Below are positions 5,859-6,780 of a stretch of 64,000 nt of DNA, in pieces. Each line of letters opens with the position of its first letter. The first letter of the stretch is position 1. The DNA lies in IMG/VR virus record IMGVR_UViG_2706795545_000001; one strand, written 5' to 3'. The position numbers and the translations under genes are program-made. The DNA comes from a virus. The notes beneath the pieces are model-generated. The model searched no databases and was not told the DNA's origin. It worked only from the letters and a program-made list of their open reading frames with translations.

Positions 5859-6780
5859 TGCACATAAGCAATATAGTTCGTCAATAATTGCCGTCCTGCA
5901 CACGAGCAAAAAGTACGCTCAATAAACGCGATATTGCACACAAGCAACATATACGTTCAATAAGATACCCATTGCACATAAGCAATCAGCTATTTCAATA
6001 ATTAATGTACGTGCACACAAGCAACCTGATTGTTGATAAAAATACCAACTGCACACTAGCATTCTATCCTTTCCCTAAGGACTTAGTTGCACACTAGCAA
6101 AATATCCATTCAATAATATTTATATTGCACATAAGCAACAGGTCTATTCAATAATAAATACGTTGCACATAAGCAAGCTAATAATTCAATAACGATATCT
6201 TTGCACACGAGCATTATCATTCCTCAATAACCGTGAAGTTGCACAAAAGCAATAAAGAGTTTCAATAAAATTGCTCATGCACACAAGCAAGAGAAAACTT
6301 CAATAAAGACGTTTATGCACACAAGCAAAGATACAATTCAATATCGAAAGATATGCACATAAGCAATCAGCTATTTCAATAATTAATGTACGTGCACACA
6401 AGCAATTGCTATGCTCAATAATAGTCGAATTGCACACAAGCAAAATAATCATTCAATAAACACCTTATTGCACATAAGCAATAAGTATAGTCAATAAACA
6501 CCCCACTGCACACAAGCAATAACATTATTCAATAATATTTATATTGCACATAAGCAAGAAATATCTTCAATAAAAATCACCCTGCACACAAGCAATGAGG
6601 TAAGTCAATAACAATCTACCTGCACACCAGCAAAGATAAAGATCAATAAAAAAAGTTTTGCACATAAGCAACCAGGCTATTCAATAAACCGCATATTGTA
6701 CACAAGCAAATATAAAGTTCAATAACGGCAAACTTGCACATGAGCAAGGGTTGGTTTTCAACAAGAATCCTATTGCACAC
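5859..6780 (+). ncRNA. TIGR-type tandem interspaced guide RNA array, 24 units of 38 nt
   Basis: Each unit is TGCACA(C/T)AAGCAA, 9-nt variable, TCAATAA, 9-nt variable. Unit starts: 5859, 5897, 5935, 5973, 6012, 6050, 6088, 6126, 6164, 6202, 6240, 6278, 6316, 6354, 6393, 6431, 6469, 6507, 6545, 6583, 6621, 6659, 6697, 6735. Terminal TGCACAC at 6774. Three units are 39 nt. Confidence 0.9.

What the first reader, a model, noticed from the sequence alone, without database searches (positions are those of the whole stretch)
5859..6773. Guide content: promoter-like predicted targets, T-biased spacer ends and module reuse
Seen: units 4 and 14 are identical (TCAGCTATT/TTAATGTACG). Units 7 and 18 share spacer B (TATTTATAT) with different spacer A. 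Units 8/22 and 7/16 have related A spacers, so the array appears to grow by duplication and half-unit shuffling. Spacer A ends in T in 17/24 units and spacer B in 14/24. Inference: joined as A+revcomp(B), several targets resemble archaeal BRE/TATA or RBS regions: u12 GAGAAAACTTAAACGTCT, u21 AGATAAAGAAAACTTTTT, u18 TAACATTATATATAAATA, u7 AATATCCATATATAAATA, u19 GAAATATCTGGGTGATTT, u16 AATAATCATATAAGGTGT. This fits guided silencing of host promoters. I found no full 18-bp self-target in the window by eye.
Basis: partly seen in the sequence, partly recalled or inferred. Interest (0 to 1): 0.65.

Follow-up and report, generated by a model that had tools for sequence, protein, structure and literature searches.

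The report
Viral TIGR guide array: shuffled half-guides
This is the guide-RNA array of a known kind of RNA-guided DNA-binding system (TIGR-TasA) in a hot-spring archaeal virus. Its two-part guides are duplicated and recombined half by half, but nothing I could test shows that they aim at host promoters.

Summary
Window 5859-6780 holds 24 units of 38-39 nt (edge repeat, 9-nt spacer A, loop repeat, 9-nt spacer B). They sit 1 nt after the stop of a 343-aa gene whose model best matches TasR and TasH and has no nuclease domain. This is a dual-repeat TIGR-TasA locus in a large spindle virus of Sulfolobales, a known kind.

The "related" A spacers of 8/22 and 7/16 are at chance level.

Fourteen related viral loci and Sulfolobales virus YNP1 carry the same repeat family. 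Whole units recur between arrays in a different order. Exact half-units recur with unrelated partners: 10 pairs against 1.03 expected. Recombination at both repeats therefore reshuffles guides.

Promoter targeting is not supported. TATA-like words occur in 6 of 23 window guides but in 9 of 210 guides of the other arrays, the coding-sequence level. I found no credible target in this virus, in related viruses, in five other viruses, in five plasmids, or in exact scans of viral contigs (7 guides) and metagenome contigs (1 guide). Host genomes could not be reached.

Earlier notes of this scan report the same system on other DNA and claim plasmid targets; I could test that only in part.

The parts
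4826..5857 (+). tasA: 343-aa nuclease-less Tas protein (coiled-coil helix, two Zn ribbons, Nop-type RNA-binding domain, C-terminal loop with invariant H294, Y305, Y306)
   Evidence: A profile of 20 homologues hits PDB 9mty_A (TasR) at E=7e-5. The AF2 model has pLDDT 90.6. Foldseek top hits are TasR 9mty, TasH 9w04 and IS621 8wt6. No Pfam nuclease domain. A homologue lies directly upstream of the array, on the same strand, in 12 related loci.
5859..6780 (+). Dual-repeat TIGR array: 24 units of edge repeat TGCACAYAAGCAA + spacer A (9 nt) + loop repeat TCAATAA + spacer B (9 nt), ending in a 3'-truncated edge repeat at 6774-6780
   Evidence: The same repeat family is found in 14 viral-contig loci and in Sulfolobales virus YNP1.
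5973..6024 (+). Unit 4 (TCAGCTATT / TTAATGTACG) plus the next edge repeat; first copy of a 52-nt exact duplication
   Evidence: The unit is also present in L004/L008 unit 16 and L012 unit 7.
6354..6405 (+). Unit 14; second copy of the 52-nt duplication
6117..6125 (+). Spacer B of unit 7 (TATTTATAT), identical to spacer B of unit 18
   Evidence: L004 unit 23 carries it with 1 mismatch and yet another A spacer.
6520..6544 (+). Unit 18, spacer A to spacer B. A (TAACATTAT) equals A of L004 unit 12; B is B of L004 unit 23 with 1 mismatch. A chimeric unit.
5910..5972 (+). Units 2-3 (A2 AAAGTACGC ... B3 GATACCCAT). L007 unit 13 is exactly A2+B3, a one-unit deletion or insertion between loop repeats.
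6733..6773 (+). Terminal unit 24 (GGGTTGGTTT / GAATCCTAT). The edge repeat forms a short hairpin followed by a T-rich run, which looks like a terminator. The unit is kept in 4 arrays.

Best explanation
The stretch is the guide array of a dual-repeat TIGR-TasA system carried by a large tailed spindle virus of Sulfolobales. Inferred by homology: the array is transcribed with tasA, since it starts 1 nt after the stop codon. It is then cut once per unit into about 38-nt tigRNAs. A TasA dimer holds each tigRNA by the edge and loop repeats. Spacer A pairs with one DNA strand and spacer B with the other strand of an adjacent 9+9 bp site that reads A+revcomp(B). Without a nuclease domain, the complex binds DNA and blocks it rather than cutting. 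Shown here by comparison: guide content turns over by homologous recombination between the short repeats. Edge-to-edge events duplicate, delete and reorder whole units. Loop-to-loop events join spacer A of one unit to spacer B of another. The T-rich last base of both spacers and the A-rich start of spacer A are positional biases of the whole repeat family, not marks of particular targets. The natural targets remain unidentified. The guides do not aim at the virus itself or at its close relatives.
For: Identity: profile hit to TasR 9mty, a confident model, and Foldseek top hits TasR, TasH and IS621. No nuclease family in Pfam. Alternating 13-nt and 7-nt repeats with 9-nt spacers. Both repeats start with U (96-99%) and end in AA (94-100%). 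tasA and the array are linked in 12 of 12 loci that hold tasA. The invariant H294/Y305/Y306 loop fits the Y/H processing loop of dual-repeat Tas proteins (10.64898/2026.09.09.750476 section 10). TasA acts as an RNA-guided repressor in reporter assays (same preprint, section 12). Recombination: a 52-nt exact duplication. Exact-A/unrelated-B pairs number 10 against 1.03 expected, and exact-B/unrelated-A pairs 2 against 0.03. A of u2 plus B of u3 equals L007 unit 13. The L016 array is the L007 array minus whole units. Shared units lie in a different order in the window and in L004. Shared units are 17-18/18 identical, while 4-fold sites of tasA are 59% identical and those of flanking genes 62-86%. 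Positional biases across 254 units: last base T in 46% (A) and 44% (B), G only 5% at the end of B, A at 52-60% at positions 2-4 of spacer A. No self or kin targets: 206 guides against 329 kb gave 0 hits at 0-1 mismatch and 11 at 2 mismatches, against 8.1 +/- 3.0 for re-paired controls; window self-hits equal controls.
Against: No RNA data exist for this virus: transcription, processing and TasA binding are inferred from homology. The unit is 38 nt, not 36. The box letters (U[G/C] ... [C/U]AA) differ from the UG ... CCA of TasR, and the 7-nt loop repeat cannot form the closing pair seen in TasR. Chimeric units are hard to reconcile with a strict need for both halves to match one 18-bp site. They may be neutral by-products, or half-sites may suffice. 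High conservation of shared units could reflect recent exchange between viruses rather than selection.
Confidence: 0.85

Rival explanations
1. One reading: the guides are aimed at host (Acidianus/Sulfolobus) promoters and ribosome-binding regions, so the virus silences host genes, for example defence genes, by RNA-guided repression.
For: TasA can repress transcription in reporter assays. TATA-like hexamers occur in 6/23 window composites against 2.1 in composition-matched shuffles (P=0.005) and 1.2 in random 18-mers of the window. SD-like pentamers occur in 4/23 against 0.9-1.3.
Against: The excess vanishes against re-paired real spacers (4.5 expected, P=0.16). It is absent from the other arrays of the family: 9/210 = 4.3%, against 4.5% in coding sequence and 15.8% in upstream regions. 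Two of the six share one spacer. Three of the six arise at the T|A junction created by the T-rich spacer ends. The logo shows no fixed-register BRE/TATA pattern. The metagenome scan for the best-conserved guide gave 35 hits, a chance-level number, none in a related or archaeal-looking context.
Confidence: 0.12
2. Inter-element conflict: the guides are aimed at rival viruses or conjugative plasmids of the same hosts and block their transcription or replication.
For: Faure et al. propose this for TasA. One guide of related arrays (GAAAAAAGT / AATTTAAAA) matches with 1 mismatch the TATA-box region about 30 nt upstream of the ATG of a conserved conjugative-plasmid gene in pHVE14, and with 2 mismatches the same place in pNOB8. 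Earlier notes of this scan on related viruses claim plasmid and mobile-element targets (unchecked).
Against: Re-paired controls give 0.5 one-mismatch hits in the same plasmid panel, so the hit is within chance, and it comes from an AT-rich guide that is not in this window. No window guide matches five plasmids (183 kb) or five Yellowstone viruses (193 kb) within 1 mismatch. At 2 mismatches the only right-order hits are one AT-rich guide at two places in the rudivirus panel member, and swapped orders do as well. Exact scans of the viral contig collection for 7 window guides hit only unrelated contigs.
Confidence: 0.3
3. Self-regulation: the guides bind the virus's own promoters to time its gene expression.
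For: The array sits in an operon-like run of same-strand genes. TasA is a repressor type.
Against: The best self matches of all 24 guides carry 3-5 mismatches, as in controls. No guide of six related, mostly near-complete genomes hits its own genome within 2 mismatches in the right order.
Confidence: 0.03
4. Not RNA guides at all: a DNA-level iteron array (replication origin or partition site) bound by the neighbouring protein.
For: Regular 38-bp spacing with two conserved boxes 19 bp apart. Large spindle viruses have repeat-rich intergenic regions proposed as origins (my own recollection of STSV1, not checked here).
Against: The neighbouring protein has the Tas/Nop RNA-binding fold. The architecture matches TIGR unit for unit. 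The array always lies on the coding strand of tasA. Individual 9-mers are conserved between viruses far above neutral sites, which iteron spacers need not be.
Confidence: 0.03

Closest known systems
Dual-repeat TIGR-TasA systems (FpTasA of Flavonifractor plautii, Faure et al. 2025, PMC12045711; MbTasA, Xu et al. 2026, bioRxiv 10.64898/2026.09.09.750476)
   Same: A solo Nop-domain protein next to a long array of two alternating short repeats with two 9-nt spacers per unit. The array ends in a truncated edge repeat. The C-terminal loop carries conserved Tyr/His. There is no nuclease.
   Different: The unit is 38 nt rather than 36. The edge repeat is 13 nt and the loop repeat 7 nt. The box letters are U(G/C) ... 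(C/U)AA instead of UG ... CCA. The protein has two zinc-ribbon insertions. The host is an archaeal spindle virus. Expression, processing and binding are untested for this one.
Repeat array of Acidianus tailed spindle virus (Hochstein et al. 2016, cited as reference 39 in PMC12045711)
   Same: Faure et al. cite it as an earlier-seen TIGR-like array in an archaeal virus. The window may be that virus or a very close relative.
   Different: I could not read the 2016 paper or find the record in the phage collection, so identity is unverified. Neither TIGR paper that I read (PMC12045711 and the 2026 repression preprint) analyses its guide content.
TasR / TasH nucleases (PDB 9mty, 9w04)
   Same: Best structural matches of the 343-aa protein. 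Same Nop core and coiled coil. The target geometry is taken from them.
   Different: They carry RuvC or HNH domains and cut DNA. This protein has neither.
CRISPR arrays, including virus-borne mini-arrays
   Same: Tandem guides between repeats, carried by a virus. Units are either kept letter for letter or absent between relatives.
   Different: Two different, very short repeats. Split 9+9 nt guides for opposite strands. No cas genes and no leader-polarised order. Shared units are reordered and recombined at half-unit level.

Membership tests
TIGR-Tas (dual-repeat) | Adjacent Tas protein with a Nop-type RNA-binding domain | tested here: met
   Profile against PDB: 9mty_A at E=7e-5. Model pLDDT 90.6. 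Foldseek top hits are TasR, TasH and IS621.
TIGR-Tas (dual-repeat) | Array of two distinct alternating repeats (8-12 nt) with two spacers of about 9 nt per unit | tested here: met
   Edge 13 nt, A 9 nt, loop 7 nt, B 9 nt. 248 of 283 parsed units are 9/9. The repeat lengths lie just outside the quoted 8-12 nt.
TIGR-Tas (dual-repeat) | Box D-like start and box C-like end shared by edge and loop repeats | tested here: inconclusive
   Both repeats start with U (96% and 99%) and end in AA. The letters differ from UG ... CCA, and the 7-nt loop cannot form the closing pair described for TasR.
TIGR-Tas (dual-repeat) | [quoted passage not shown] | tested here: met
   TGCACAC at 6774-6780, then unrelated sequence. 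A terminator-like hairpin plus T-run lies in the last unit (bacterial-type scan, weak evidence for an archaeon).
TIGR-Tas (dual-repeat) | Processing into unit-length tigRNAs bound by Tas; Y/H processing loop | not testable with these tools
   Indirect only: an unstructured C-terminal loop at 292-311 with invariant H294, Y305 and Y306 in 20 homologues.
TIGR-Tas (dual-repeat) | Spacers A and B pair with opposite strands of one contiguous target | tested here: inconclusive
   No natural target was found in any join order above controls, so the geometry could not be checked on real targets.
TasA subtype | No RuvC or HNH nuclease domain | tested here: met
   No Pfam nuclease family. The model consists of an N-terminal helix, Zn-ribbon strands and a helical Nop core.
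CRISPR array | One repeat of about 23-50 nt alternating with spacers of similar size, usually with cas genes | tested here: not met
   Two alternating repeats of 13 and 7 nt, with 9-nt spacers. No cas family among the 10 neighbouring proteins scanned.
Archaeal box C/D sRNA genes | C box RUGAUGA and D box CUGA flanking 10-12 nt guides; match to Rfam C/D families | tested here: not met
   No Rfam match at E up to 1 in 4500-8000. The box sequences are absent from the units.

The most novel reading that the evidence does not exclude
In this virus family the 9-nt half-guide, not the 18-nt pair, is the unit that is inherited and selected. Recombination at the loop and edge repeats continually re-pairs a conserved stock of half-guides. 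The array would thus make new 18-bp specificities, or work through single half-sites, without any dedicated spacer-acquisition machinery. That would be a first concrete answer to how TIGR arrays diversify.
Probability: 0.2. Interest if true: 0.65.

Novelty: new member of a known kind. Interest (0 to 1): 0.35.

Why it matters
The two main TIGR papers (Faure 2025; Xu 2026) leave two questions open: what the natural targets are, and how arrays gain and change guides. This locus does not answer the first, but it sets limits. The targets are not the virus, not its relatives, and not the five viruses and five plasmids tested, and the guides are not promoter-like as a class. It bears on the second question. 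About fifteen related arrays allow a direct comparison. Guides are kept letter for letter between viruses whose neutral sites have diverged by 14-41%. They are reordered, duplicated and recombined at half-unit level. That points to repeat-mediated recombination as a main way these arrays change. It also raises the testable question whether chimeric guides still work.

Tried and rejected
(1) Host genomes could not be reached. No genome is held for the window. The search for related loci with the TasA profile in genome contigs found nothing. Plasmid loci gave only W handles, which have no relatives.

(2) Exact scans of viral contigs for seven window guides (u4/14, u12, u16, u17, u19, u20, u23) gave 0-6 hits each. 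All hits lie in contigs with no protein similarity to Sulfolobales viruses or plasmids; one was checked and is a Firmicutes phage.

(3) A metagenome scan for u4/14 gave 35 hits in contigs of mixed GC. There was no similarity to these viruses apart from one marginal tblastn hit (E=1e-5, 35% identity). One cluster has sparse ORFs. I estimated about 40 hits by chance.

(4) Single 9-mers against the virus genomes: A 1003 occurrences against 938 +/- 53, B 944 against 801 +/- 48. This is a weak excess that any natural sequence would show over column-permuted words.

(5) The bacterial sigma-70 promoter scan is uninformative for an archaeal virus.

(6) BLAST of typed 18-mers against the phage and plasmid collections was dropped, because an exact 18-mer falls below the reportable E-value.

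(7) Readings as CRISPR, box C/D sRNA or iterons were rejected (see the membership tests and rival explanations).

Full report
**What is there.** Window 5859-6780 is a head-to-tail array of 24 units. Twenty-one are 38 nt and three (u4, u14, u24) are 39 nt. Each unit reads: edge repeat TGCACAYAAGCAA, a 9-nt variable stretch (spacer A), loop repeat TCAATAA, and a second 9-nt variable stretch (spacer B). After unit 24 comes a truncated edge repeat (TGCACAC, 6774-6780), and then the ribosome-binding region of the next gene. The first edge repeat starts 1 nt after the stop codon of a 343-aa ORF (4826-5857) on the same strand. Rfam has no match.

**The partner protein.** The 343-aa protein has no Pfam family above threshold. 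It belongs to a tight family of about 70 metagenomic and viral proteins at 60-99% identity. A profile of 20 of them hits the TasR chain of PDB 9mty at E=7e-5. An AlphaFold model from that alignment is confident (pLDDT 90.6). Its best structural matches are TIGR-TasR (9mty), TasH (9w04 and relatives) and the IS621 bridge recombinase. The model shows an N-terminal long helix, two zinc-ribbon insertions and a helical Nop-type core, with no RuvC or HNH domain. The unstructured loop at 292-311 carries invariant H294, Y305 and Y306. This fits the Tyr/His processing loop reported for dual-repeat Tas proteins. It is therefore a TasA-type protein.

**The element that carries it.** The window shares 80-86% identical segments with Sulfolobus monocaudaviruses and a fusellovirus, so the element is a large spindle virus of Sulfolobales. 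Its thymidylate synthase is closest to those of Acidianus and other Sulfolobaceae.

**Known or new.** Faure et al. [quoted passage not shown] They state that a similar array had been seen in an archaeal virus, citing the Acidianus tailed spindle virus paper. I could not verify identity, because the 2016 paper and the record are not held. The system is a member of a known kind. What remains open in the two main papers is the natural targets and how arrays change, and the present finding is about those two points.

**Relatives.** A pattern scan found the same repeat family in 14 viral contig loci, and BLAST found it in Sulfolobales virus YNP1. In all 12 loci that contain a tasA homologue, the array follows the gene directly on the same strand. 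I parsed 283 units, 254 after dropping one duplicate record. The logo shows near-invariant repeats. Both repeats start with U and end in AA. Positions 2-4 of spacer A are A-rich (52-60% A). I read this as a soft extension of the box at the start of each repeat (inference).

**Duplication and half-unit reuse.** Units 4 and 14 are part of a 52-nt exact duplication. The comparison with other arrays is the informative part.
- The window and L004/L008 share whole units with 0-1 differences in 18 nt, although their tasA genes are 85% identical and only 59% identical at 4-fold sites. These shared units lie in a different order in the two arrays.
- Many single spacers are shared exactly while the partner spacer is unrelated. 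There are 10 exact-A/unrelated-B pairs against 1.03 expected from column permutation (maximum 4 in 30 trials), and 2 exact-B/unrelated-A pairs against 0.03.
- Unit 13 of L007 is exactly spacer A of window unit 2 joined to spacer B of window unit 3. That is the product of a crossover between the two loop repeats.
- Window unit 18 combines A of L004 unit 12 with B of L004 unit 23 (1 mismatch).
- The L016 array is the L007 array minus whole units.

The array thus changes by recombination at both kinds of repeat.

**Target geometry.** TasR leaves 8-nt 3' overhangs, with each cut set by its own spacer. This is possible only if the 3' half of each strand is the paired half. The other three join orders serve as controls.

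**Target searches.**
- Own genome: the 24 window guides find nothing better than 3-5 mismatches in the 64-kb window, the same as re-paired controls.
- Related TIGR viruses (six whole records fetched, 329 kb, arrays masked): 206 distinct guides gave no hit at 0-1 mismatch. At 2 mismatches there were 11 hits against 8.1 +/- 3.0 for controls, and at 3 mismatches 139 against 117 +/- 10. None lies in the guide's own genome.
- Five other Yellowstone viruses (193 kb): no hit at 0-1 mismatch. At 2 mismatches the right order gave 12 against 5.5 for controls, but a wrong order gave 16.
- Five Sulfolobales plasmids including pAH1 of Acidianus (183 kb): one 1-mismatch hit in the right order, against 0.5 expected. 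It comes from a guide of other arrays, not this window. It lies on the TATA-box region about 30 nt upstream of a conserved plasmid gene in pHVE14, with 2 mismatches at the same place in pNOB8. This is suggestive but within chance.
- Exact scans of the viral contig collection for seven window guides, and of the metagenome collection for the best-conserved guide, returned only chance-level hits in unrelated contigs.
- Host genomes could not be reached.

**Promoter-likeness.** Under a fixed definition ([CT]TTA[AT]A on either strand), 6 of 23 window composites are TATA-like. Composition-matched shuffles give 2.1 (P=0.005) and random 18-mers of the window give 1.2. Several points weaken this.
- Two of the six share one spacer.
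- Three arise at the junction, where the T-rich spacer ends create T|A.
- Re-pairing the same spacers gives 4.5 (P=0.16).
- The other arrays of the family show 9 of 210, against 9.8 expected.
- For scale, 18-mers from coding sequence of these viruses score 4.5% and upstream regions 15.8%.

It is not a property of the guide family. The reading "guided silencing of host promoters" remains possible, since TasA can repress transcription, but it is unsupported.

**Oddities left open.**
- Spacers A and B differ in composition, although the mechanism is nearly symmetric.
- One guide of record G004 matches another TIGR virus 18/18 in the same-strand order B+A, inside a small ORF. About 0.005-0.02 such matches are expected by chance, and the published geometry does not explain it.
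- If both halves must match one site, the frequent chimeric units should be inactive. Either they are by-products, or half-sites matter.

**Verdict.** The identity is known: a TIGR-TasA locus in an archaeal spindle virus, possibly the very array noted in 2016. The promoter-target part is not supported and could not be tested against host genomes.

Noticed in passing
L013 9786-9803 (= record G002 23306-23323), inside ORF L013 9707-9976 (- strand): Exact 18/18 match to spacer B followed by spacer A (same-strand order) of unit ACAAGGAAG / GTTATCCTC from another TIGR virus (G004 = L009). About 0.005-0.02 such matches are expected by chance over all join orders. The published opposite-strand geometry does not explain it.
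   Followed up: partly
L087 (pHVE14) 5526-5543; L084 (pNOB8) 29590-29607: Guide GAAAAAAGT / AATTTAAAA of related arrays (G002, G005), joined A+revcomp(B), matches the TATA-box region about 30 nt upstream of the ATG of a conserved conjugative-plasmid gene with 1 mismatch (pHVE14) and 2 mismatches (pNOB8). Controls give 0.5 such hits.
   Followed up: partly
window 6733-6758: The edge repeat of the last unit forms a short hairpin followed by GGTTGGTTTT, which looks like a terminator. The same unit is conserved in four arrays and occurs twice in L004, once internally and once at the end.
   Followed up: no
window 5699-5758 (TasA residues 292-311): Unstructured C-terminal loop with invariant His294, Tyr305 and Tyr306 in 20 homologues. 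A candidate for the Tyr/His tigRNA-processing loop described for dual-repeat Tas proteins.
   Followed up: partly
L011 (7.2-kb contig), both ends: tasA plus array is present at both contig ends in inverted orientation. This is either a terminal inverted duplication or an assembly artefact.
   Followed up: no
window 9407-10288: The viral thymidylate synthase ThyX is 72-82% identical to the ThyX proteins of Acidianus, Saccharolobus and Sulfurisphaera. This looks like a host-derived gene and is consistent with a Sulfolobaceae host.
   Followed up: partly
window 10285-10947: A 220-aa protein with a C-terminal CopG/ribbon-helix-helix repressor-like domain (PHROG 876, E=3e-13) lies a few genes downstream of the array.
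   Followed up: no
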